Virus record (IMG/VR): IMGVR_UViG_3300034061_004620
DNA from: a virus
Lineage: Duplodnaviria > Caudoviricetes
DNA: 64,000 nt
Direction: 5' to 3' (one strand)
Below, one piece after another: positions 17,751 to 61,756 of this stretch. Under the pieces are notes generated by a model. That model ran no database searches. It worked only from the letters and a program-made list of their open reading frames with translations, and was not told where the DNA came from. The position numbers and the translations under genes were made by a program. Numbering within the stretch: the stretch's first letter is position 1; each line of letters starts with the position of its first letter.

Positions 17751-17771
17751 TTTTTCAATAAATACAAGATA

Positions 17772-18263
17772 ATGCAAATCCAAGCTTATTTATATCCGAA
17801 TACAGTCACGGTCCAATTATGGGATCAGAGTATTTTCACACCAAGGAACAGAGTCGTGTACAGTCGCCCCGTTAAAATTTATCAAGGCATAGATAATCCT
17901 ATGCAGATTGTTGTGCTTAATCAGGATCAAAAGCCAGTAGATCTTACTGGTTATATTGTTCAAATGGACATACAAGATCCACTTGCAGAAGGCAGCGTAG
18001 AAAGTGTAGCTGTTGGTTTTACTGACATTACAAAAGGTCGCGGTACTTTTGCTATTACCAAATCAGTTGCGAACAGTTTAGATCAACGCTTTTACAAAAT
18101 GACACTTAAACTAATTGAGCAGGCAACTAACCAAGAAAGACCGTTGTATATAGATGCCAATTGGACTGCACCCATTGACTTAGAAGTGTTACCGGGTTGG
18201 TACGAAAGCATGCCGCTTACACTAAACAGCGACGAAGTGCTTGATGCAGGAACAATACAATGA
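17772..18263 (+). CDS. Virion structural protein (Ig/BppU-N-like)
   Basis: Late promoter TAAATA at 17759-17764; DQKPVDLTG...MDI..P...G.GTF beta-sandwich pattern. Confidence 0.6.
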   Translation: MQIQAYLYPNTVTVQLWDQSIFTPRNRVVYSRPVKIYQGIDNPMQIVVLNQDQKPVDLTGYIVQMDIQDPLAEGSVESVAVGFTDITKGRGTFAITKSVANSLDQRFYKMTLKLIEQATNQERPLYIDANWTAPIDLEVLPGWYESMPLTLNSDEVLDAGTIQ

Positions 18264-31225: not shown

Positions 31226-31274
31226 TATAAATATTAACATGCGATAACACGCAACTAATTAAGGAGAAACAAAA
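31226..31274 (+). promoter_or_regulatory. Late promoter, 5' hairpin and SD (copy 1)
   Basis: TATAAATA-TTAACA-TGCG(ATAACA)CGCA...AAGGAG. Confidence 0.8.
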
Positions 31275-31703
31275 ATGCCAATCGGAGTAACAAGAGTACA
31301 CGGCAGCACAGCCGGTGTAAATAACGTAGGGTCAGGTCAGAGTTTTGCTAATGCAGCAATTATTAATACTGGTATTGCATCGCCTATCACAGCATTCAAA
31401 ATCACCACACTTGGTGTAACTGCTAACTTAGCAGCTGAATTAGATGATCCAAGTGGTGCTGGTGTAGTAGGTGCAGTTGAAACATTAATGAAAGTAATTT
31501 CAACCAATGCTTCAGTTCTGGCATATCAAGTTGATAGTTCTGGATCAACTGCTCAATTGAGCGTTATAGTTGAGCGTAGTTCATGGACTGACTCGGATCT
31601 ACAAGTATCTATTCGTGCATTAGGTGGTAATATTGGTTCGCGCGGTAATGTATTTCCTGCACTTGCAGCAGTTACATCAACTGGCGGTATTAAACTTGCT
31701 TAA
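31275..31703 (+). CDS. Highly expressed late virion protein (paralog 1)
   Basis: Own late promoter, strong SD and terminator; rich in Ala, Gly, Ser and Thr. Confidence 0.7.
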   Translation: MPIGVTRVHGSTAGVNNVGSGQSFANAAIINTGIASPITAFKITTLGVTANLAAELDDPSGAGVVGAVETLMKVISTNASVLAYQVDSSGSTAQLSVIVERSSWTDSDLQVSIRALGGNIGSRGNVFPALAAVTSTGGIKLA

Positions 31704-31753: not shown

Positions 31754-31798
31754 CATAAATATTAACATGCGGTAACGCAAACTATTTAGGAGAAAAAA
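31754..31798 (+). promoter_or_regulatory. Late promoter, 5' hairpin and SD (copy 2)
   Basis: CATAAATA-TTAACA-TGCG(GTAA)CGCA...TAGGAG. Confidence 0.8.
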
Positions 31799-32149
31799 AT
31801 GCCAACAGGATTAGACCGTAGCGCAGGCTACTTTTTTGCAGGTACTACAGGAACTTTGATCGAACCAGGTCAGAGTATTGCATTATATGTTGTTGATGCT
31901 GGTGTAAACTTATCAACCGAAGACGACGCAGCCAACGAAGCATACGAAGCAATCATTCAAGCTTTCCCACCAGTGCTTGCATATTTTGCTCATGCAACAT
32001 CGGGTATTATTAGTATTATCTGCGACGGTGTAAACGCACCAGCAGCAAGTGCCTTACAAACAGCACTCCAAGCACTTGGAACCAAAAAAGGTTCTGTTAA
32101 CTTGGGTAGTGCAACTGTAACAGCAGGGACAAGTTTTGTAGTATCGTAA
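31799..32149 (+). CDS. Highly expressed late virion protein (paralog 2)
   Basis: MP.G..R..G start and SA.VT.GT/GG end resemble paralog 1. Confidence 0.7.
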   Translation: MPTGLDRSAGYFFAGTTGTLIEPGQSIALYVVDAGVNLSTEDDAANEAYEAIIQAFPPVLAYFAHATSGIISIICDGVNAPAASALQTALQALGTKKGSVNLGSATVTAGTSFVVS

Positions 32150-37211: not shown

Positions 37212-37910
37212 ATGATCATTCAAAAATACGATTATACACCGTTATCAAGAGAAAGTGTTGAAGGCAAACGACATTATGCTTTACCAGATGGCAGTCGTGT
37301 TCCTTCTGTCACCACTATACTTGACCGAACTAAACCCGAAGAAGCAAAACAAAAACTACGCGAATGGAAAGATCGTGTAGGACATGACCGTGCTCAACAA
37401 ATAACCACAGAAGCAGCCAATCGTGGTACCAGAATGCACACATACTTAGAACGCTATGTGAAGAATAACGACATCGGCGAATTTCCAACAAATCCGTTTG
37501 CACAACCAAGTTGGTTTATGGCAGCACAGGTTATATTAGAAGGGTTACAACATGTGGATGAATATTGGGGTTGCGAGGTACCTTTATACTACTCTGGGCT
37601 TTATGCTGGAACTACTGATTGTGTCGGAATCTGGAAAGGACAGCCTGCGATCATGGATTTTAAACAAACGAATAAGCCTAAAAAAAGAGAATGGATTGAC
37701 GATTATTTTCTACAGCTCGCGGCATATGCGGCAGCTCACAACGACACACACGGAACACAGATCAATACTGGAGTTATTCTCATGTGCGCCCGCCCTGAGA
37801 GCGATCGAGCAACTCCTCAATACCAAGAATTTGTATTAGAGCCCGGTGATTTTGCTTACTGGAGCGATCAGTGGATGCGTAGAGTTGAGCTGTACTATCT
37901 CTCAAGCTAA
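37212..37910 (+). CDS. PD-(D/E)XK exonuclease (phage RecB/lambda-exo/Cas4-like)
   Basis: PSVTTIL, RGTRMH, AGTTDC, IMDFKQT and QLAAY motifs. Confidence 0.88.
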   Translation: MIIQKYDYTPLSRESVEGKRHYALPDGSRVPSVTTILDRTKPEEAKQKLREWKDRVGHDRAQQITTEAANRGTRMHTYLERYVKNNDIGEFPTNPFAQPSWFMAAQVILEGLQHVDEYWGCEVPLYYSGLYAGTTDCVGIWKGQPAIMDFKQTNKPKKREWIDDYFLQLAAYAAAHNDTHGTQINTGVILMCARPESDRATPQYQEFVLEPGDFAYWSDQWMRRVELYYLSS

Positions 37911-37934
37911 ATACACAATAATTGAGGATTTAGC

Positions 37935-39302
37935 ATGGCCGTTACGCAGATTAGCAGAATTCAACATCGTAGAGGACTCGAGCAGGATCTCCCGCAGCTG
38001 GCTTCAGCTGAATTAGGTTGGAGTCTTGACACAAGAAAATTATACATAGGAAACGGTACACTTGACGAAGGCGCTCCAAGTCTCGGAATCACAGAAATCT
38101 TAACAGAATATTCTGATCTCACAGCTTTACTTGGAGCATATACATTTGTCGGTAACGTAACGGGTTACACTGTGCAAACTGGCAGCAGTATTTTAAATCC
38201 AGTAACAAGAAGCTTCCAACAAAAATTCGATGATTTTGTTAATGTCCGCGATTTTGGTGCTACCGGTAACGGTATAGATGACGATTACGCAGCTATTAAT
38301 AGAGCAATTACACAGATATACAGAACAACTAATAATCTAACAGATCCGCGCACACGTAGAACTATTTACATTCCAGGCGGAACCTATTTAACTTCAAACA
38401 CGATTCAGATTCCGCCTTTTGCAAGATTGGTTGGCGATGGGATCAACAGTAGTATAATTAAGGCTAAATTTGGTAATATATCTTTAGCAAATTTATGCGA
38501 TTCATCATTTATTTCTGGACCATCAATTGGCACTGGCTCAGCTGTGTTACCGCAAAGTATAGAAATAAATGGAATGAAATTTTTAAATGATAATGCCACT
38601 GTGACCGCACCAATGTTCAATATTGACAGTGCAAGTAATATCAAAATCACAAACACCAATTTTTCATCTAATGTAGGTAATGGCGTTTATTCAAATATTA
38701 TACACATTAAAAGTCATGCATCTTCAACAAAATTTGTCGTAATAGATTCGTGTCAATTGGCAGGTGGTGGCAATGGTATTGTTAATTTTGGGTCAGATAC
38801 TGCTGCAATTAATATTGTTCAAAGTACATTTGACCGCTTCGCTAATGTTGTTTTAGTATTAAACGACATCGATAGTATATCTCTCTTTAATAATTACTAT
38901 GGACCGCAATCCGGGGCTATTAGTTCAAAAGATTCAGCAATTTCATTTGTCAGTATTGGTGAGGTTTTTGGTTCAGGGGCGAGCCTGTTAGACGGTCTAT
39001 TTTTAGGAAACTTGATTCAATCAACTGCAAGAGGTGTAAGTGTCAGTACCACGCCCGCAGTTATCTCCGCTTTAGTAGCTAACACAGCAGCGGCTTTGCG
39101 TTATGAAATAAGCAATAGTTCAGCTCGAAGGTTTGGCATATTTACATTTACTACAGATGGAGTTGATAATGTTTTTTCAGATTCTTATACCGAAACTGTG
39201 ATTCCTATTAAAGCAAATTTATTTGCAAATGGAAACAGTCTTATATGTTCGATTGATTCAGGAACAGGGACTTTAAAATTAAATTACACACAGTTTATTT
39301 AA
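37935..39302 (+). CDS. Tail/baseplate protein with a pectate-lyase-like beta-helix
   Basis: Late promoter at about 37907; RIQHRRG...ELGW..DTRKLYIGNG N-terminus; VNVRDFGATGNGIDDD.AAI. Confidence 0.8.
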   Translation: MAVTQISRIQHRRGLEQDLPQLASAELGWSLDTRKLYIGNGTLDEGAPSLGITEILTEYSDLTALLGAYTFVGNVTGYTVQTGSSILNPVTRSFQQKFDDFVNVRDFGATGNGIDDDYAAINRAITQIYRTTNNLTDPRTRRTIYIPGGTYLTSNTIQIPPFARLVGDGINSSIIKAKFGNISLANLCDSSFISGPSIGTGSAVLPQSIEINGMKFLNDNATVTAPMFNIDSASNIKITNTNFSSNVGNGVYSNIIHIKSHASSTKFVVIDSCQLAGGGNGIVNFGSDTAAINIVQSTFDRFANVVLVLNDIDSISLFNNYYGPQSGAISSKDSAISFVSIGEVFGSGASLLDGLFLGNLIQSTARGVSVSTTPAVISALVANTAAALRYEISNSSARRFGIFTFTTDGVDNVFSDSYTETVIPIKANLFANGNSLICSIDSGTGTLKLNYTQFI

Positions 39303-47864: not shown

Positions 47865-48242
47865 ATGCCAATTTTAACTTCAACAACAAAATCTAAAACA
47901 ATGGAAACTTCAAATAAAACTGATTCGAAAAAAATTGATTTTGATCGCGTTAAGCAAAGTGTGGTAGAGTTCTTCTCTACCCACTTTAGCAAAATCTCCG
48001 CAGAAACAATGGGATGGTTGGCGGCTATTGCTTTACATGCTGCCACTGTACCTACTTTACTTGCATTACTAACCGGACTAACAGATTCTACACCAAGTGT
48101 GGATGTTATTTTGTTTATGTGGTTAGGACTTGTGTTACTTTTTGGTCGAGCTGTAATTCTAAAAGATTTACTCAATATCGTAACAATTGGGCTGGGTTTT
48201 GTAATCCAGGCTGTACTAATGGCCTTGATCCTGTTCAAATAA
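47865..48242 (+). CDS. 3-TM membrane protein, SemiSWEET/PQ-loop-like
   Basis: GWLAAI....TVPT... followed by two more TM helices. Confidence 0.55.
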   Translation: MPILTSTTKSKTMETSNKTDSKKIDFDRVKQSVVEFFSTHFSKISAETMGWLAAIALHAATVPTLLALLTGLTDSTPSVDVILFMWLGLVLLFGRAVILKDLLNIVTIGLGFVIQAVLMALILFK

Positions 48243-48273
48243 TCCATAAATACTCGTAGAACAGGAGGCAGCG

Positions 48274-48498
48274 ATGACCAAACGTGCCGAAATTGAAATC
48301 GAAGAAGTAGCATACAGCATAGAAGACGAAATTGGAGAAGAAGACTACGGTTTCGTCTTTGATGCAGACGGTAATTTAAAGTTTGCATTTATTCCTGAAA
48401 TCGTTCCTGACAAACCACCTAAAAACATCACCAAAATAATGAAGATCTTGGGTGTTATTGATTTAGCACAATTCCACGAAGACTTAACAATTCATTAA
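48274..48498 (+). CDS. Acidic hypothetical protein
   Basis: TAAATA near 48248 and GGAGG SD. Confidence 0.7.
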   Translation: MTKRAEIEIEEVAYSIEDEIGEEDYGFVFDADGNLKFAFIPEIVPDKPPKNITKIMKILGVIDLAQFHEDLTIH

Positions 48499-53056: not shown

Positions 53057-53106
53057 TTGACATACTTCTCTTAGTATACTATACTCAACACACAATTCTA
53101 TAAATA
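53057..53106 (+). promoter_or_regulatory. Tandem sigma70 and late promoters
   Basis: TTGACA-N17-TATACT (53057-53085) and TATAAATA (53099-53106). Confidence 0.8.
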
Positions 53107-53112
53107 CACGCT

Positions 53113-54819
53113 ATGTTATTTGGATCACTAATCATGTTGGTGGCCATTACCATTTCGGCAATTGCTGCTTGGTATTCGGTCGCTGGTCTTACTGCCATAT
53201 TCAGTGCAGCAGTCATCCCTGTTATCATCATGGGAGGCGCACTGGAAGCCGGTAAATTGGTTGCCACGGTTTGGCTACACAACAATTGGCGTAGAGCCGG
53301 TTGGGCATTTAAAACATATCTGATTCCTGCCATTGTGTTTCTCATGCTGTTGACCAGTATGGGTATATTTGGTTTCTTGAGCAAGGCACATTCGGATCAA
53401 AGCCTGGTAACCGGTGATGCCACCAGCCGGGTTGCCATCTATGATGAAAAGATTGCCACCGAACGAGAAAACATAGCACAAGCAAAGAAGGCACTTGAGC
53501 AAATGAATGCACAAGTAGATCAAATGCTTGGTAGAACAGATACAGAGCGTGGAACAGAGAGAGCAGTTGTTATTCGTAAACAACAGGCCAAAGAACGAGC
53601 CGCGTTACAAACAGAAATTGCAAAAAGTCAAAAAAACATACAACAGTTACAGGCTGAACGAGCACCATTTGCTGCTGAAGCCAGAAAAGTAGAGGCCGAA
53701 GTAGGACCAATAAAATATATTGCTGCTCTTATATACGGCGACAATCCTGACCAAAACGTTCTTGAGCGGGCTGTACGTTGGGTTATTATTCTTATTGTTG
53801 TTGTATTTGATCCATTGGCTCTAACACTTATTCTTGCTGCCAACAAACAGTTCGAATGGGCAAGAGCCGGTAAGGGTGGTTGGGTACATGATGAGGAAGA
53901 AAAAACGGTTTCAGCAGTTACCGCGACAGAAGAACCAAAAGAAGAGTCGCCACCTCAACCTGATTATCCGGCCGATGATGGACCTCTCACCGAGGATCAA
54001 TTGAAACAAATTCAAACTACTGTAGATTGTGGCAACTGTCCTAAGTGTGAAACAAAACTAACATACGCACCAGGTATTGGTCCATTCTGTCCCAACAAAC
54101 AATGTGATGTTGTAGACGGGATCAACACAGTTGGTAGTACTGAGGAATTTTTTGAACAAGCACATTTTGCAGCACAAACAGCAGACATGTTAGATGAACA
54201 GCAACGTGCCGAGTATGCCAACCAAGAAATAAGCAAGATTGAACCCGAACATGATCTTGATATACCGGTACTGGAAAATGAAGAAATGTGGGCCAGTAGG
54301 GTAATAGACGAACAGGCAAAAGGTCTGCTCGAGCCGCCGCCTTCACCGCCGAATGTACCAATGGCCAAAATAGAGCCCGAGCCTGCCACACCTGCGGTTG
54401 ATGAATTTAACACTCCGATACGTAGGGGAAATGACTACGCAGTAAGATACAAGGGCAAAGTTTATAACCTGGATGCATTCAATAAACTGTATCCCAGCAT
54501 GGCCATCAGCGCCGATAACGACAGATTAGAAGAAGCCAGCCAGTGTGGATTTGGAGATAGATTTCCTGAATCTCCCATGAAAGGCGATATGTTTATAAGA
54601 ACAGACTATTTACCAGATCGCTTATTTAAATGGAATGGCACCAAGTGGATAGAAGTTGACAAAAACTCTACTGACAGCTATACTTACAATCAAGCCTATA
54701 TACAGCATCTTATTAGCAAGCTCGAAGCAGGCGAATATGAAATTGAGGATTTGAGTGATGCTGAGCAGGCACAGGTAGAACAACAAATTGAAGAAATTTT
54801 AAAAACCAAACGTGTATAG
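53113..54819 (+). CDS. Multi-TM membrane protein with coiled coil, Cys ribbon and acidic tail
   Basis: About three N-terminal TMs, a coiled coil, a further TM and CGNCPKC...CPNKQC. Confidence 0.8.
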   Translation: MLFGSLIMLVAITISAIAAWYSVAGLTAIFSAAVIPVIIMGGALEAGKLVATVWLHNNWRRAGWAFKTYLIPAIVFLMLLTSMGIFGFLSKAHSDQSLVTGDATSRVAIYDEKIATERENIAQAKKALEQMNAQVDQMLGRTDTERGTERAVVIRKQQAKERAALQTEIAKSQKNIQQLQAERAPFAAEARKVEAEVGPIKYIAALIYGDNPDQNVLERAVRWVIILIVVVFDPLALTLILAANKQFEWARAGKGGWVHDEEEKTVSAVTATEEPKEESPPQPDYPADDGPLTEDQLKQIQTTVDCGNCPKCETKLTYAPGIGPFCPNKQCDVVDGINTVGSTEEFFEQAHFAAQTADMLDEQQRAEYANQEISKIEPEHDLDIPVLENEEMWASRVIDEQAKGLLEPPPSPPNVPMAKIEPEPATPAVDEFNTPIRRGNDYAVRYKGKVYNLDAFNKLYPSMAISADNDRLEEASQCGFGDRFPESPMKGDMFIRTDYLPDRLFKWNGTKWIEVDKNSTDSYTYNQAYIQHLISKLEAGEYEIEDLSDAEQAQVEQQIEEILKTKRV

Positions 54820-55656: not shown

Positions 55657-55687
55657 TTGCAATCAATCACAAAATCGTGTATAAATA
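55657..55687 (+). promoter_or_regulatory. Overlapping sigma70 and late promoter of hsp20
   Basis: TTGCAA-N17-TATAAA, where the -10 element is TATAAATA. Confidence 0.7.
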
Positions 55688-57038: not shown

Positions 57039-57593
57039 ATGGATATAATGCTTGACATAGAAACACTAAGCACTCGCCCATGGTCGGTTATTCTTACTTT
57101 GGGTGCAGTCAAATTCAGTCCTTGGGAGTCAGATGTTGACACAGAGTCTGGGTTGTATGTTCGTCCCGATGTGGATGAACAACTGAATATGAACAGGCAT
57201 GTTCAAGATGAAACAGTGACCTGGTGGGGCACTCAACCCGACGAAGTCAGAGAAGAAGCTTTAGGCACCAATGGTCGAATCAGCATCAATGAAATGTTGG
57301 ATCAATTGAATCGCTTCTTGGTTGGAGCAGACAACATTTGGTGCCAAGGTCCGGCATTTGATATTGTAATCTTAGAAGATTTATATAGACAAATGGGACG
57401 CCCAACTCCGTGGCAGTTTTGGCAAATCAGAGACAGTCGCACATTGTTTAGTGTACACGGTGATCCAAGAGAAAAAGGTCGTCATGGTGCTCATAACGCT
57501 TTAATAGATTGTTATTATCAGGCACGTGCCGTACAACAGATATACAAAGATGCAGGTATCAAAAAACGTACATATGAAAGCGTAACCAAATAA
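57039..57593 (+). CDS. DEDDh 3'-5' exonuclease (Rv2179c-like)
   Basis: MLDIETL, GPAFD, RDSRT and HNALID motifs. Confidence 0.88.
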   Translation: MDIMLDIETLSTRPWSVILTLGAVKFSPWESDVDTESGLYVRPDVDEQLNMNRHVQDETVTWWGTQPDEVREEALGTNGRISINEMLDQLNRFLVGADNIWCQGPAFDIVILEDLYRQMGRPTPWQFWQIRDSRTLFSVHGDPREKGRHGAHNALIDCYYQARAVQQIYKDAGIKKRTYESVTK

Positions 57594-57904
57594 TGGACAT
57601 AATTTTTTCAAGGAAAGTAGCCGAGGAATTGTCGGAAAGATACACAGTCTTAGAGTTAGAACCACACATAGTAGAAGACAAAGTATTAGAAACATTTTGT
57701 GTTATTGAAAGCGATAAAATTCCTTTAAACGAAGTTACAATGTTAGAGCACTGGAAAAAACTACATAGAGAATTCGTACAGGCCAACAAAGAAAAAAATG
57801 GAAAGTTATGTAATGATCTTGCTGTATATCTAACAGGTAAGTTTGGTGGCGAATTAGATGAATTCTATGATATAGTTCGTAATCGTTATTTAGACCAACA
57901 GTAA
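57593..57904 (+). CDS. Hypothetical protein
   Basis: TAATG-coupled ORF. Confidence 0.7.
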   Translation: MDIIFSRKVAEELSERYTVLELEPHIVEDKVLETFCVIESDKIPLNEVTMLEHWKKLHREFVQANKEKNGKLCNDLAVYLTGKFGGELDEFYDIVRNRYLDQQ

Positions 57905-57921
57905 GCATTTAATTTTTTCTC

Positions 57922-57955
57922 AAAGCTCCTTAAATAATATAAAAGGAGCTTTTTC
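57922..57955 (+). terminator. Terminator-like hairpin with a late promoter in its stem and loop
   Basis: AAAGCTCCTT-N11-AAGGAGCTTT plus a T-run; TAAATA at 57931-57936. Confidence 0.7.
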
Positions 57956-58015
57956 TATTAAAAAAATTCTATAACAGCTCCGTAATAAAAAGGTCACGAA
58001 AGACCAGGAGCTAAA

Positions 58016-58480
58016 ATGAAAAAAGTATTACTTGCAGTTGTATTATTAACATCATCGACAGTTTATGCTGTTGATCCTATCATTACAGATTCTACATCTC
58101 GTAGCGTAACAGAATCTACATCTACTACCACAGTTAAATCTCCACCACCTACAGCAGTAGCACCCGCTATCACAACACTCAACAATGATCTTTGTGCAGT
58201 TGCGGCTTCTGGTGCTGTACAGACACAAATTTTTGGTATCTCTGTTGGTAAAACGTTTGTAGATAAAAACTGTGAACGTCTAAAATTATCTAAAACACTA
58301 TTTGACATGGGCATGAAGGTTGCTGCGGTTGCTGTAATGTGTCAAGACGAGCGGGTGTTTACTGCTATGATGAATGCCGGTACGCCATGTCCAGTTGATG
58401 GCAAAATTGGTGAAGCAGCAAGAGAAATATGGGATGCTGATCCAAAGCGGCAACCACAAAATGTAAAGAGCAAGGATTAA
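58016..58480 (+). CDS. Exported Cys-containing protein
   Basis: Signal peptide MKKVLLAVVLL; Ser/Thr-rich linker; four Cys. Confidence 0.8.
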   Translation: MKKVLLAVVLLTSSTVYAVDPIITDSTSRSVTESTSTTTVKSPPPTAVAPAITTLNNDLCAVAASGAVQTQIFGISVGKTFVDKNCERLKLSKTLFDMGMKVAAVAVMCQDERVFTAMMNAGTPCPVDGKIGEAAREIWDADPKRQPQNVKSKD

Positions 58481-60747
58481 TGAAACAGGTCCTGGCATTG
58501 GTATTGTTAGGTCTTTTGAATTTAGCTAACGCTCAAAGTGTAGAAACAACACCTAACCAAATTACTTCCGGTAATACACATACTTGGACGGGTGTGACCA
58601 CAGGTACATTACCGTCGACCTACATGCCAGGTGGTCCGCAACCTATATACGATCCGGCCACTAACACTATTAGTTTCAGTTACGGGCAAGCGACAGCGGC
58701 ACAAACTTTTGCTATTAACCAGGCATTACAAAATGCTGGTGCAGGCATTACTGTACAAGGATACAGTTATTCCTGGGACATTCGTAATATGAATGGTGAT
58801 AACAGACAACCAACTACTGATACATTGACCGCTACTGTCAATACCTATGCCGCAAATAACACTACTATTCGAAGAACTGATACATGGACTTATAACACTA
58901 AAATTGACTGGACTACATTTAGTGGTATTATAAATTACAACAATCCTGGAGCACCAAGTACTTTCGGAAACCTAACTGTTCAGTTCAGTGGTACAGATGT
59001 AGGATTCTGGGCAGGATATTTTGGTCCACAGATTCGTAATGTTAGTATTGGATTGAATTATACCGTTGATCCTTGCTTTAGTAATCCAGCATATTCGCCG
59101 ACCTGTGCAAATTATAACACGGTAAGTATTAGTGAAAATTTATTATCCGGTATCACTGGACCACAAGCCTATGCTATTAATCAGGCACTATCTTTTGCCG
59201 GCGCCGGCGCAACTATACATGGATTCAACTACGGATACAATTATAGCGTTGCCGGAAGATCATGCGCTGTATGGGATTTTTTCGGACTTTGTTTATCTGG
59301 GTACAATTATTCCGATGCCGGAGTCAACATTTCTTTAACAAATAGTAGTGGTGCTACCATATATTCAGAAAGCAACACACACAACGGTGGTGACAATGGT
59401 ACCAGCGGCACATATTCTAAACAGTACAGATTAAGTGCAAGTGTTCCTATGTCTACTCTGGGAACATTTAGCATGAATCCATGGACTTCGGGTTCCGCAA
59501 GTATTACCAATATGTATAGTAGTGCAGTATACACAGCAGATCCATGTGTATCTAATCCTTTATCAAGCAATACTTGTTCGGGCTACGCAGCAGCGTATTA
59601 CAATCAACAATGTAGTTTAAATGCATTGTACGATTCTGGTTGTCCTGGCTATGCTCAGGCGGTGTTCGCACAACAATGCAATATCAATCAATTATCAGAT
59701 CCTGCTTGTCCAGGGTATGCGGTTGCATATTTAAATTACCAATGCTCGTTGAATTCTCTATACAGCACAACATGTTCTGGGTATTCGACTGCATTGAGCC
59801 AGTGTAATGTAAATCCATTGGGTAATTCAATGTGTCCGGCGTATCAAACTGCAACCACTCAATGTAGTTTAAATCCTTTGTACGGTTCTTATTGTCCTGG
59901 ATATACCGCAGCACAGAACACCTGCACAACAAATCCGTTGAGCAATTCTTTATGTACAAATTATCAAACTGCAACTACCAGTTGCTCTGCAGATCCTTTA
60001 TATGGAGCATATTGCCCAGGATATGCTTTTGCTTATTCTTGTAGTCAAGATGGGTTGTATAGCAATCAATGTCCTAACTACGCAGAGGCTTACGCTAAAA
60101 AGAATATTTTGAATATTGGATCATCAACCACAACAACGACTAATACAACTTCGTCTACAATTGTGTTAGCACAAGCATCGGATCCTGTTGCACAAGCAGC
60201 ACCTGTAGTTGCAGATCCGGTAGTTAATAGTGTTGTTACCACAAGAAGTACAGCCGCCACCAGTGAAACAAATCCTGCTGCGGCAGTTAAATTAACTGCA
60301 CCATCAACAACAACTGCTACCGCTGTACAAGAATCGGCCACTAAAGAAAATAAAAAATCTGAAACTACTACTACCGCTGCTACTTCAAAGGATGGAGTAA
60401 GACCTGACAGGCCTACTACTGCCAGAGAAGCTGTTGCAGAACAAAGACGTGAAGCAGCTAAGAAAGAAGCGGTACAAAAAGGTAAAGATTTAGCCAATGA
60501 AATGGGCAAGGCAGCAGATATGCAGGCGCAAATGGAAGTACAAAATGTAGTTATTCAGGCTATGGGATATAGTCCAGGGTTCGATAATTACGGTAGATTT
60601 ATACTACCGGACGGTCAAGCATATCGACCATATACCATTTATAACAATCAGCGTACTGTAGATACACCAGCAGGGCGAGGATTATTTGGGGGCAGCGATG
60701 GTGTCCATCAAAGAATGGTCGATTCACAATATAACTTAGGAAATTAA
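58480..60747 (+). CDS. Large exported protein with Cys-pair repeats
   Basis: Signal peptide; ten C-x9-C-x2-Y units. Confidence 0.8.
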   Translation: MKQVLALVLLGLLNLANAQSVETTPNQITSGNTHTWTGVTTGTLPSTYMPGGPQPIYDPATNTISFSYGQATAAQTFAINQALQNAGAGITVQGYSYSWDIRNMNGDNRQPTTDTLTATVNTYAANNTTIRRTDTWTYNTKIDWTTFSGIINYNNPGAPSTFGNLTVQFSGTDVGFWAGYFGPQIRNVSIGLNYTVDPCFSNPAYSPTCANYNTVSISENLLSGITGPQAYAINQALSFAGAGATIHGFNYGYNYSVAGRSCAVWDFFGLCLSGYNYSDAGVNISLTNSSGATIYSESNTHNGGDNGTSGTYSKQYRLSASVPMSTLGTFSMNPWTSGSASITNMYSSAVYTADPCVSNPLSSNTCSGYAAAYYNQQCSLNALYDSGCPGYAQAVFAQQCNINQLSDPACPGYAVAYLNYQCSLNSLYSTTCSGYSTALSQCNVNPLGNSMCPAYQTATTQCSLNPLYGSYCPGYTAAQNTCTTNPLSNSLCTNYQTATTSCSADPLYGAYCPGYAFAYSCSQDGLYSNQCPNYAEAYAKKNILNIGSSTTTTTNTTSSTIVLAQASDPVAQAAPVVADPVVNSVVTTRSTAATSETNPAAAVKLTAPSTTTATAVQESATKENKKSETTTTAATSKDGVRPDRPTTAREAVAEQRREAAKKEAVQKGKDLANEMGKAADMQAQMEVQNVVIQAMGYSPGFDNYGRFILPDGQAYRPYTIYNNQRTVDTPAGRGLFGGSDGVHQRMVDSQYNLGN
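59530..60100 (+). repeat. Tandem protein repeat of about 20-22 aa (CxxNPLYxxxCPxY), 9 copies; bounds approximate
   Basis: Read directly from the translation. Confidence 0.8.
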
Positions 60748-60748
60748 A

Positions 60749-61381
60749 ATGTCAGACAAAAACAAAAACATCGACGAAAAAGTCGAAGAACTCGAAGCTG
60801 CTAAGGAAAAATATCTTAGCGAAAATACTGTTATCAGCATTGGTGGATATGCGTTTACTCCGGCCAAATTAATGATAGCGGCCACTATTGTTAGTACCGT
60901 ATTAGGTGGTCTGTATGGGGCCTTTGAAATATACAAAGACTACATGGACATGAAAGACAAAATAGCCAATTATGTAACACCAGATCTTGGCGAAATTTAC
61001 AAGAAATTAGAAGTACTTGAAGCAAGCACAAATAAAACAGTAGAATACAGTCAAGACATCAAGAATGATCTCAAAGGCGATATTCGTAGATTAGAAAACG
61101 TGGTTGAAAGCGTAGAACGTGACAGCAAGGTAGCACAACGCGAAACAGATAAAAGTGTACAGGATGCTCGTAAAGATGTAAGAGAAACCAAGGTCGAGGT
61201 TGATAAGATTACTCGTCAACTTGAAAAAGACACAACTCAACAAAACAAAGAATTACAGCGTCAAGTTGATGCAGCAGTGAGACAACTGCAAAAGGAAAAT
61301 GAGGCTGAAATAAAACAATTACGTCGAGAACTGGACGATAAAATCAAAAAAGCATTAGATAATCCATTGGCCAACAAATGA
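60749..61381 (+). CDS. Membrane-anchored long coiled-coil protein
   Basis: One TM followed by extended heptads. Confidence 0.75.
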   Translation: MSDKNKNIDEKVEELEAAKEKYLSENTVISIGGYAFTPAKLMIAATIVSTVLGGLYGAFEIYKDYMDMKDKIANYVTPDLGEIYKKLEVLEASTNKTVEYSQDIKNDLKGDIRRLENVVESVERDSKVAQRETDKSVQDARKDVRETKVEVDKITRQLEKDTTQQNKELQRQVDAAVRQLQKENEAEIKQLRRELDDKIKKALDNPLANK

Positions 61382-61391
61382 TATATACTAT

Positions 61392-61733
61392 ATGAAGAAC
61401 ATTTTAGCTGCCATCTTACTGGCCACTATAGCTTTGGCAGCTACAGCTGAGCCGAGGCCACGAAAAATACAAATGATGTGTGGCAGCTTTGAAGATGTTG
61501 AAGCTACTATGGAAAAGTATGGTGAAAAGCTAATCATGGCTACTCAGTCACCAAATGAACAAACTGTTAATTTGGTGTATGCTAATTTTGAAACAGAAAC
61601 TACAAGTTGGTTTATTCATGATTTGCAAACCGACGAATATTGTATGGTAGGAGTTGGTAAACAAATTTATATACCAGACGATAGTGTGCTTAAAAAAGGC
61701 ATAGGAATTGGATTAAAAGCTGCTTACAAATAA
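61392..61733 (+). CDS. Small exported protein
   Basis: Signal peptide; two Cys. Confidence 0.75.
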   Translation: MKNILAAILLATIALAATAEPRPRKIQMMCGSFEDVEATMEKYGEKLIMATQSPNEQTVNLVYANFETETTSWFIHDLQTDEYCMVGVGKQIYIPDDSVLKKGIGIGLKAAYK

Positions 61734-61756
61734 ACCTGGAATTTCCAGGTTTTTTT
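61732..61756 (+). terminator. Intrinsic terminator
   Basis: AAACCTGGA-ATT-TCCAGGTTT followed by a T-run. Confidence 0.8.

What the first reader, a model, noticed from the sequence alone, without database searches (positions are those of the whole stretch)
57922..58018. Late-promoter-gated anti-anti-SD RNA switch controlling the exported-protein operon
Seen: four complementary blocks: A = AAAGCTCCTT (57922-57931), B = AAGGAGCTTT (57943-57952), C = AGCTCC (57976-57981) and D = GGAGCT (58007-58012, the real SD), plus an inner GGTC-ACGAAA-GACC hairpin. A late promoter TAAATA (57931-57936) sits between A and B. Inference: read-through RNA forms A:B (terminator) and C:D, hiding the SD (off). A late transcript starting near 57941 lacks A, so B can capture C and free D (on). 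Established precedent: T4 early-hairpin/late-promoter control of e, soc and I-TevI, which is a simpler single-hairpin design; this is a two-layer version.
Basis: partly seen in the sequence, partly recalled or inferred. Interest (0 to 1): 0.7.

Follow-up and report, generated by a model that had tools for sequence, protein, structure and literature searches.

The report
Late promoter inside a terminator hairpin
In an uncultured giant T4-like lake phage, a late promoter sits in the loop of a terminator hairpin, ahead of a second hairpin that hides the ribosome-binding site of an exported-protein operon. The layout could make translation depend on which promoter made the mRNA, but that switch is plausible rather than shown.

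Summary
Four of the window's 15 GGAGCT sites fall within 89 nt, in alternating orientation.

TAAATA is a gp55-type late-promoter core. It is enriched in the window's intergenic DNA. It lies 20-120 nt upstream of the orthologous gene in 99 of 142 relatives, against 3% of random windows. The two complete related genomes searched both encode gp55.

Twelve distinct sequences share the two-hairpin layout. A:B shows compensatory changes, and the inner hairpin shows nine different stem sequences.

More distant orthologues carry the classic T4 single hairpin (5' arm, TAAATA, SD arm). The window's C segment aligns to that hairpin with a decayed promoter, so the two-layer layout looks like a tandem duplication of it.

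The switch itself is only partly supported. At equilibrium the late RNA still folds C:D in all 12 sequences. However, B:C is the best fold of the nascent late RNA in 10-11 of 12, the barrier to refolding is 7-12 kcal/mol, and B lowers the cost of opening the SD (6.3-6.8 to 1.6 kcal/mol in the window).

No transcription start site data exist. This is a new variant of a known kind. The scan noted the same stretch once before, in an overlapping window.

The parts
57922..57931 (+). Block A, the 5' arm of the terminator-like hairpin. Its 3' end overlaps the promoter context CTTAAATA.
   Evidence: Stem pairs are kept by compensatory changes in relatives.
57929..57936 (+). gp55-type late-promoter box CTTAAATA (core TAAATA, 57931-57936), lying in the A:B loop.
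   Evidence: TAAATA: 14 of the window's 37 copies are in about 3.1 kb of intergenic DNA. It lies upstream of the orthologue in 99/142 relatives against 3.2% background. gp55 is present in complete relatives. The motif rule comes from PMC1524935.
57942..57942 (+). Predicted late transcription start (+/-1 nt). The late mRNA would begin AAAGGAGCUUUUU.
   Evidence: Inference from the T4 rule that the box spans -13 to -6 (PMC1524935). Not mapped.
57943..57952 (+). Block B, the 3' arm of A:B. It is SD-like (AAGGAGC) and is the proposed decoy for C.
57950..57959 (+). U-run TTTTTCTATT after the A:B stem, acting as the terminator tail.
   Evidence: A U-run follows B in about 10 of 12 relatives; it is absent in L165 and weak in L002.
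57967..57972 (+). Conserved box TTCTAT (TTCAAT in relatives) just 5' of C. Its role is unknown.
   Evidence: Invariant T, C and A columns in alignment A1. The box is also present in single-hairpin relatives.
57976..57981 (+). Block C, the anti-SD arm AGCTCC.
57982..57988 (+). GTAATAA, a probable decayed copy of the ancestral late promoter. It sits at the same distance from the ATG as TAAATA does in single-hairpin relatives.
   Evidence: Alignment to L112, L095 and L031. Distances are 26-29 nt in relatives.
57992..58005 (+). Inner hairpin GGTC-ACGAAA-GACC, ending 1 nt before the SD.
   Evidence: Present in all 12 two-hairpin sequences, with nine different stem sequences.
58007..58012 (+). Block D, GGAGCT. 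It is the SD of the 154-aa gene (core GGAG, 58007-58010).
58016..58480 (+). First gene of the operon: a 154-aa protein with a signal peptide (PHROG 20531, function unknown).
   Evidence: More than 560 relatives were found in IMG/VR.
58480..61752 (+). Rest of the operon: a 755-aa exported repeat protein, a 210-aa TM/coiled-coil protein and a 113-aa protein with a signal peptide. A terminator-like hairpin lies at 61732-61752.

Best explanation
This is a composite control element of a T4-like (gp55-type) jumbo phage.

(1) A:B plus the U-run ends the upstream Hsp20-ClpS-nucleotidyltransferase-exonuclease operon.

(2) A late promoter lies in the loop of that hairpin. gp55-RNA polymerase therefore starts at about 57942, inside the hairpin. 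The late mRNA cannot form the terminator and begins with B.

(3) The 5' UTR carries a conserved SD-masking helix, C:D, stacked on a small conserved hairpin.

(4) In read-through RNA, B is locked in A:B, so C pairs with D and the operon is not translated.

(5) In late RNA, the 5'-terminal B pairs with C while the RNA is being made, before D exists. This leaves the SD free long enough for ribosomes to load. It is a kinetic, promoter-selected translational switch.

The layout arose by tandem duplication of a classic T4-type single gating hairpin (arm, TAAATA, SD), followed by decay of the downstream promoter copy.

Steps 1-3 rest on sequence and comparison. Steps 4-5 and the duplication are inference. 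Confidence in steps 1-3 is about 0.75; the 0.45 given here is for the whole model including the switch.
For: Anatomy and non-randomness.

Promoter:
- TAAATA is enriched in intergenic DNA (14 of 37 copies).
- It lies upstream of the orthologue in 99/142 relatives against 3.2% of random windows.
- gp55 homologues are present in both complete related genomes, E 7e-63 and 3e-60.
- Published rule: the box spans -13 to -6, with a CTAAATA variant in Aeh1 (PMC1524935, PMC2988020).

Terminator: the hairpin is -12.1 kcal/mol followed by U5. Compensatory changes at stem positions 3-8 are seen across 12 sequences.

Conserved inner hairpin: nine different stem sequences.

The same phage uses the classic design elsewhere. 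At 48247, CCTGTTC-TAAATA-GAACAGG(AGG) gives an RBS-opening cost of 11.3 falling to 7.1 kcal/mol. At 37908 the cost falls from 9.8 to 2.2.

Ancestry:
- Orthologues L031, L082, L095, L110, L112 and L102/104/114 have the single hairpin, with TAAATA 26-34 nt from the ATG.
- The window's C module aligns to these, with GTAATAA in place of TAAATA.
- The A module resembles the C module (p about 0.03).

Switch:
- The B:C duplex is at least as long as C:D in all 12 sequences, and of similar or greater stability in most.
- In L004, A, B and C changed together, giving a perfect 7-bp B:C against a 5-bp C:D.
- L165 keeps A:B without a U-run.
- The cost of opening the SD in the window is 5.8 (read-through), 1.6 (late), 6.8 (no B) and 6.3 (B shuffled) kcal/mol. 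B lowers the cost in about 9-10 of 12 sequences.
- The nascent late RNA folds B:C in 10-11 of 12, and the barrier to the closed state is 7-12 kcal/mol in 10 of 12.
Against: - At equilibrium the late RNA keeps the SD paired in all 12 sequences, and the closed state is favoured by 0.3-6.7 kcal/mol. In the window the SD is still about 80% paired.
- A~C and B~D could follow from duplication alone. They could also follow from independent constraints: the promoter context TCCTT forces B toward AAGGA, and the SD forces C toward CUCC.
- B:C energies are no better for matched pairs than for pairs taken from different sequences, -9.6 against -9.0 kcal/mol.
- The 12 sequences are close relatives, so few evolutionary events are independent.
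- The A:B loop is 11 nt, long for a terminator, and the consensus scan did not call it.
- The upstream operon has its own TATAAATA at 55680, so read-through RNA may also be late. That weakens the timing rationale.
- No TSS, structure-probing or expression data exist.
Confidence: 0.45

Rival explanations
1. There is no switch. A:B is a terminator with an embedded late promoter that insulates and restarts transcription. C:D plus the inner hairpin is a constitutive 5'-UTR structure that damps translation or stabilises the mRNA. The B:C match is a by-product of duplication, promoter context and the SD constraint.
For: - The best fold of the late RNA has the SD paired in all 12 sequences.
- Pairing of the SD at equilibrium hardly differs between full-length and late RNA in the relatives.
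- There is no matched-versus-unmatched signal for B:C.
- CTTAAATA-N-AAGGAG cassettes (late promoter plus SD) are common in unrelated phages, so B may be a former SD.
Against: - The only transcript expected to express the operon would carry a masked SD, costing 4-9.5 kcal/mol to open without B. Elsewhere this phage and the gene's more distant orthologues mask only read-through RNA.
- In L004 and L205, C pairs better with B than with D.
- L165 keeps A:B without a U-run.
Confidence: 0.35
2. B:C forms, but its role is to protect the late mRNA. A stem 2 nt from the 5' end would block 5'-end-dependent decay by RNase E or RppH type enzymes. It would not act mainly to unmask the SD.
For: The predicted late RNA starts 1-3 nt before the B:C stem. 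The role of 5'-terminal hairpins in mRNA stability is established knowledge, and RNase E 5'-end dependence is cited in PMC3014915.
Against: This does not explain why C is also the anti-SD. It is not exclusive of the switch. Nothing tested here separates the two.
Confidence: 0.1
3. The element is a neutral remnant of a recent tandem duplication with no present function beyond the promoter.
For: The A and C modules are similar. The downstream promoter copy has decayed.
Against: Compensatory changes in A:B and nine different inner-hairpin stems across relatives whose first-gene protein (154 aa) is 73-97% identical to the window's argue for selection on structure.
Confidence: 0.05

Closest known systems
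T4 early-hairpin / late-promoter translational gating (genes e, soc, 49, I-TevI; PMC3014915)
   Same: A gp55-type TATAAATA-like late promoter. The SD is sequestered in longer upstream-initiated RNA. Promoter choice decides the 5' end and hence the fold. The classic form is present in this window (48247, 37908) and upstream of more distant orthologues of this very gene.
   Different: In T4 the late start lies inside the SD-masking hairpin, so the late RNA simply lacks the 5' arm. Here both arms of C:D are downstream of the start. Relief would need a third segment, B, to capture C, and the hairpin that holds the promoter is a terminator rather than the SD mask.
Four-segment translational attenuation (ermC/cat type) and the trp-type attenuator logic (own knowledge)
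   Same: Segments 1:2 and 3:4 form in the off state, with 3:4 hiding the SD. The alternative pairing 2:3 frees the SD.
   Different: There is no leader peptide or stalled ribosome. Segment 1 is removed by starting transcription downstream of it, not by covering it.
Intrinsic (Rho-independent) terminators
   Same: A:B has a 10-bp stem (-12.1 kcal/mol) followed by UUUUU, 17 nt after a stop codon.
   Different: The loop is 11 nt and contains a promoter. The 3' arm is SD-like. One relative (L165) keeps the hairpin without the U-run.

Membership tests
T4-type late-promoter/early-hairpin gating | A gp55-type late-promoter box upstream of the gene, in a phage lineage that encodes gp55 | tested here: met
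CTTAAATA at 57929-57936. The motif is enriched in intergenic DNA and lies upstream of the orthologue in 99/142 relatives against 3.2% background. phrog_234 was found in both complete relatives. It was not found on the close relatives' contigs, which are 20-37% complete fragments.
T4-type late-promoter/early-hairpin gating | SD and/or AUG sequestered in a helix in upstream-initiated RNA | tested here: met
   C:D pairing probability is 0.92-1.0 in RNA from 57905. The cost of opening the RBS is 14.4 kcal/mol.
T4-type late-promoter/early-hairpin gating | The late start lies inside the SD-masking helix, so the late RNA lacks its 5' arm | tested here: not met
   The predicted start, 57942, is 34 nt upstream of C, so both arms of C:D are in the late RNA. 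The feature is met in relatives L031, L082, L095, L110 and L112 and at 48247 in the window.
T4-type late-promoter/early-hairpin gating | Mapped late 5' end and differential translation | not testable with these tools
   Only Logan contigs from RNA libraries were available, and these cannot show 5' ends.
Intrinsic terminator | A stable stem directly followed by a U-run, downstream of a gene | tested here: met
   The stem is 10 bp at -12.1 kcal/mol, followed by TTTTTCTATT, with the stop codon at 57902-57904. The 11-nt loop exceeds the limit of the scan, which therefore missed it.
Four-segment translational attenuator (ermC type) | Mutually exclusive pairings 1:2 / 3:4 against 2:3, with 3:4 hiding the SD | tested here: met
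   B:C is -13.4 and C:D is -14.6 kcal/mol in the late RNA.
Four-segment translational attenuator (ermC type) | A leader peptide ORF whose stalled ribosome masks segment 1 | tested here: not met
   There is no ATG, GTG or TTG after B at SD spacing in the window or in L001. Only an ATT at 57957 is present.
Any curated RNA family (Rfam 15) | A match to a covariance model | tested here: not met
   No hit at E <= 1 in 57500-58500.

The most novel reading that the evidence does not exclude
This is a natural four-segment RNA switch in which the identity of the promoter, not a ligand, protein or ribosome, selects the fold. Starting transcription inside a terminator hairpin puts an SD look-alike at the extreme 5' end of the mRNA. 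That decoy captures the anti-SD during transcription and licenses translation, while read-through RNA is terminated or stays silent. It would have arisen in one step, by tandem duplication of a T4-type gating hairpin.
Probability: 0.4. Interest if true: 0.65.

Novelty: new variant of a known kind. Interest (0 to 1): 0.5.

Why it matters
T4's use of a late promoter inside an RBS hairpin is a textbook way to keep late genes silent on early read-through RNA. This locus shows that the principle is widespread in uncultured T4-like lake phages, upstream of one conserved exported-protein gene. It also shows a derived, two-layer form.

If the B:C decoy works, three things follow:
- It would be an example of kinetic, promoter-selected RNA folding that needs no trans-acting factor.
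- It would show how a simple duplication turns a one-hairpin gate into an attenuator-like switch.
- It would offer a compact part for synthetic circuits that combines a terminator, a promoter and a translational gate in about 95 nt.

If the decoy does not work, the element is still a clean case of a promoter nested in a terminator loop.

Tried and rejected
- Rfam scan of 57500-58500: no hit.
- blastn against 50,697 phage records: no close relative, only short 69-73% matches.
- No whole genome is held for the window, so gp55 could not be sought in it. On the close relatives' contigs (G001-G003, 20-37% complete) phrog_234 was not found, which says nothing either way.
- RNAalifold on a MAFFT alignment of the C-to-D region gave no consensus. 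The arms are shifted by 1-2 columns between sequences, and alignment A1 has the same fault. I therefore counted pairs sequence by sequence and did not use the count of structure pairs.
- My first attempt to delimit C with a TTC-box regular expression picked the wrong box. It was discarded and redone.
- A first barrier estimate used inner-hairpin coordinates off by one. It was corrected.
- DNA pattern scan of IMG/VR for the two-hairpin module: every true instance lies upstream of this gene family. The other hits are ordinary promoter-SD-ATG cassettes with a chance CAGGAG in the coding region.
- Metatranscriptome runs: three RNA libraries hold identical short contigs at 57965-58126, 58212-58426 and 58978-59184, and none upstream of 57965. 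Contigs cannot show starts, strand or level, and DNA carry-over is possible, so this is not counted as evidence.
- A leader peptide after B was considered and rejected, because there is no start codon.
- A sigma70 promoter in the B-to-C spacer (TATAAC at 57970) was considered and rejected. There is no -35 element and the sequence is not conserved in relatives.

Full report
**Context.** The window is one strand-uniform stretch of a large phage genome, with every long ORF on the + strand. It encodes a helicase, a DnaB-like helicase, ribonucleotide reductase and structural proteins.

Upstream of the finding lie genes for Hsp20, ClpS, a cytidylyltransferase-like protein, an Rv2179c-type exonuclease and a 103-aa ORF that ends at 57904. 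Downstream is a tightly packed operon:
- a 154-aa protein with a signal peptide (PHROG 20531, function unknown);
- a 755-aa exported repeat protein;
- a 210-aa TM/coiled-coil protein;
- a 113-aa protein with a signal peptide.

The operon ends at a terminator-like hairpin at 61732-61752. No genome is held for the window and no close relative is in the phage records. IMG/VR contigs that are close relatives are rated 20-37% complete at 78-137 kb. That implies a genome of roughly 370 kb.

Every block is at the stated coordinates, and the repeat finder recovers A/B, C/D, B/C, A~C and B=D. GGAGCT is not over-represented in the window: there are 15 sites on both strands and shuffles give 14.3. Four of the 15 lie within 89 nt, in alternating orientation. 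The region folds far better than shuffles (z = -3.95).

**Is TAAATA a promoter?** The evidence is as follows:
- Fourteen of the window's 37 TAAATA copies lie in its roughly 3.1 kb of intergenic DNA, and 7 of 10 ATAAATA copies do.
- The 154-aa gene has hundreds of relatives in IMG/VR and in metagenomes.
- In 99 of 142 distinct upstream regions, TAAATA lies 20-120 nt before the start codon. The same is true of 3.2% of random same-size windows in the same loci. The motif is usually CCTAAATA or TATAAATA.
- T4's late promoter is TATAAATA at -13 to -6, and phage Aeh1 uses CTAAATA (PMC1524935, PMC2988020).
- The two complete related genomes searched (160 and 235 kb) both encode a gp55 late sigma factor, with E 7e-63 and 3e-60 against phrog_234.

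An earlier unchecked note of this scan places gp55 about 94 kb upstream in the window's own genome. I could not verify that. By the T4 rule the late start is 57942, so the late mRNA begins AAAGGAGCUUUUU. It lacks A and starts with B.

**A:B.** The stem is 10 bp with an 11-nt loop (-12.1 kcal/mol). It is followed by UUUUUCUAUU and begins 17 nt after a stop codon.

Twelve distinct sequences share the whole two-hairpin layout. They are the window (identical to L182/L183), L001, L002, L162, L003, L009, L165, L081, L005, L004, L205 and L173. Counting pairs outward from the invariant T of TAAATA, these changes appear:
- positions 3-5 change CG/TA/CG to TA/CG/GC in L004;
- position 6 changes GC to AU in L002 and L162;
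- positions 7-8 change AU to GC/CG in L165 and L205.

A U-run follows in about 10 of the 12 sequences. L165 has none yet keeps a 9-bp stem. The hairpin is therefore under selection. Termination is its most likely role, but perhaps not its only one.

**C:D and the inner hairpin.** C:D is 4-6 bp in all 12 sequences. The small hairpin that ends one base before the SD is present in all 12, with nine different stems:
- GGUC/GACC
- GGCU/AGCC
- GGCC/GGCC
- GACC/GGUC
- GGCGU/ACGCC
- GGCU/AGUC
- GGC/GCC
- AAGUC/GACUU
- GGCA/UGCC

This is the clearest covariation in the element.

**Where the layout came from.** More distant orthologues carry the classic T4 design. A 5' arm is followed directly by TAAATA, a short loop and an SD-containing 3' arm, with TAAATA 26-34 nt from the ATG. 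Examples are L031 (CUCCUUGGGU/ACCCAAGGAG), L082, L095, L110, L112 and L102/L104/L114.

The window itself has such gates at 48247 (CCTGTTC-TAAATA-GAACAGG.AGG) and at 37908. This agrees with an earlier first-reader note for other parts of this genome.

The window's C module aligns to those single hairpins, including a shared AATTC box. It carries GTAATAA, 27 nt from the ATG, where they carry TAAATA. The A module resembles the C module (local alignment score 23 against 16 +/- 3 for shuffles, p about 0.03), and B equals D over AGGAGCT.

The simplest reading is a tandem duplication of the unit arm-promoter-SD. The downstream promoter then decayed and the inner hairpin was gained or kept. This is inference.

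**Does B act as an anti-anti-SD?**

Against:
- At equilibrium the late RNA still prefers C:D. In the window the values are -14.6 against -13.4 kcal/mol, and the SD is about 80% paired.
- The SD is paired in the best fold of the late RNA in all 12 sequences, and the closed state is favoured by 0.3-6.7 kcal/mol.
- B:C energies are no better for matched pairs than for pairs from different sequences.
- The promoter context (TCCTT) and the SD already force some complementarity between B and C.

For:
- The cost of exposing GGAG in the window is 5.8 kcal/mol in read-through RNA and 1.6 in late RNA. It is 6.8 if B is removed and 6.3 if B is shuffled. B lowers the cost in about 9-10 of 12 sequences.
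- The nascent late RNA, cut just before D, has B:C as its best fold in 10-11 of 12 sequences.
- The direct-path barrier from the SD-open to the closed state is 12.5 kcal/mol in the window and 7-12 in 10 of 12 sequences. With the usual elementary rates of 1e6-1e7 per second, this implies lifetimes of tens of seconds to minutes. That is my estimate.
- The B:C duplex has at least as many pairs as C:D in all 12 sequences.
- In L004, A, B and C lost one base in concert, giving a perfect 7-bp B:C against a 5-bp C:D. In L205, L001 and L009 the flanks of C pair with B but not with D.

In read-through RNA, A:B forms first and C:D follows. The nested alternative A:D + B:C has the same energy and also hides D.

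**Verdict.** The terminator with an embedded late promoter and the SD-masking UTR are well supported (about 0.75). The decoy switch is plausible as a kinetic device but fails as an equilibrium one (about 0.45 for the whole model).

One caveat weakens the early-versus-late rationale. The upstream operon has its own perfect TATAAATA at 55680, so read-through RNA may also be late.

RNA-library contigs identical to 57965-58126, 58212-58426 and 58978-59184 exist in three studies, but contigs cannot show starts or strand.

The element is not in Rfam. The module was found only upstream of this gene family.

Its closest relatives are the T4 e/soc/49/I-TevI gates (PMC3014915). It fails one defining feature of those gates, because the late start is not inside the masking helix. 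In logic it resembles ermC-type four-segment attenuators, without a leader peptide. It is a new variant of a known kind.

Noticed in passing
window 48225-48276: A classic T4-type gate. The arm CCTGTTC lies upstream of TAAATA (48247-48252) and pairs with GAACAGG, which overlaps the SD (AGGAGG) of the ORF at 48274. The cost of opening the RBS is 11.3 kcal/mol in read-through RNA and 7.1 in late RNA.
   Followed up: partly
window 37890-37937: TAAATA at 37908 lies inside a helix that masks the RBS of the tail-spike-like gene at 37935. The opening cost falls from 9.8 to 2.2 kcal/mol when the RNA starts after the box.
   Followed up: partly
window 31226-31275 and 31754-31799: Two nearly identical late-promoter leaders, TAAATAttaacatgcg(a/g)taac..cgcaa, each with a small GCG...CGC hairpin and a GGAG SD. 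They precede two neighbouring ORFs, so this is a duplicated promoter/UTR cassette.
   Followed up: no
window 57967-57972, and the same place in L001-L205, L095, L112 and L031: The box TTC(A/T)AT, within AATTC, lies just 5' of the anti-SD arm. In the alignment it is as invariant as the promoter and the SD, and it is shared with single-hairpin relatives. Its function is unknown.
   Followed up: partly
window 53101-53115 and 17759-17774: TAAATA lies 6-7 nt before an ATG with no SD, which suggests leaderless or near-leaderless late mRNAs. This agrees with earlier first-reader notes.
   Followed up: partly
window 55680-55687: A perfect TATAAATA lies 58 nt upstream of the Hsp20 gene, so the 'upstream' operon may itself be transcribed late.
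   Followed up: no
L001-L240 (orthologous loci): The 154-aa exported protein (motifs TVKSPPPTAVAP, KTLFDMGM and four Cys) is very widespread. There are more than 560 IMG/VR and more than 400 metagenome matches, in T4-like phages of 160-235 kb and larger. Its C-terminal part also occurs in Pelagibacter podophages. Its function is unknown.
   Followed up: no
window 57910-57919 and 58018-58027; 57949-57959 and 58015-58025: U-rich tracts before A and after B are complementary to the A-rich start of the coding region (AUGAAAAAAG). In the long RNA's best fold they add an outer helix that also buries the start codon.
   Followed up: no
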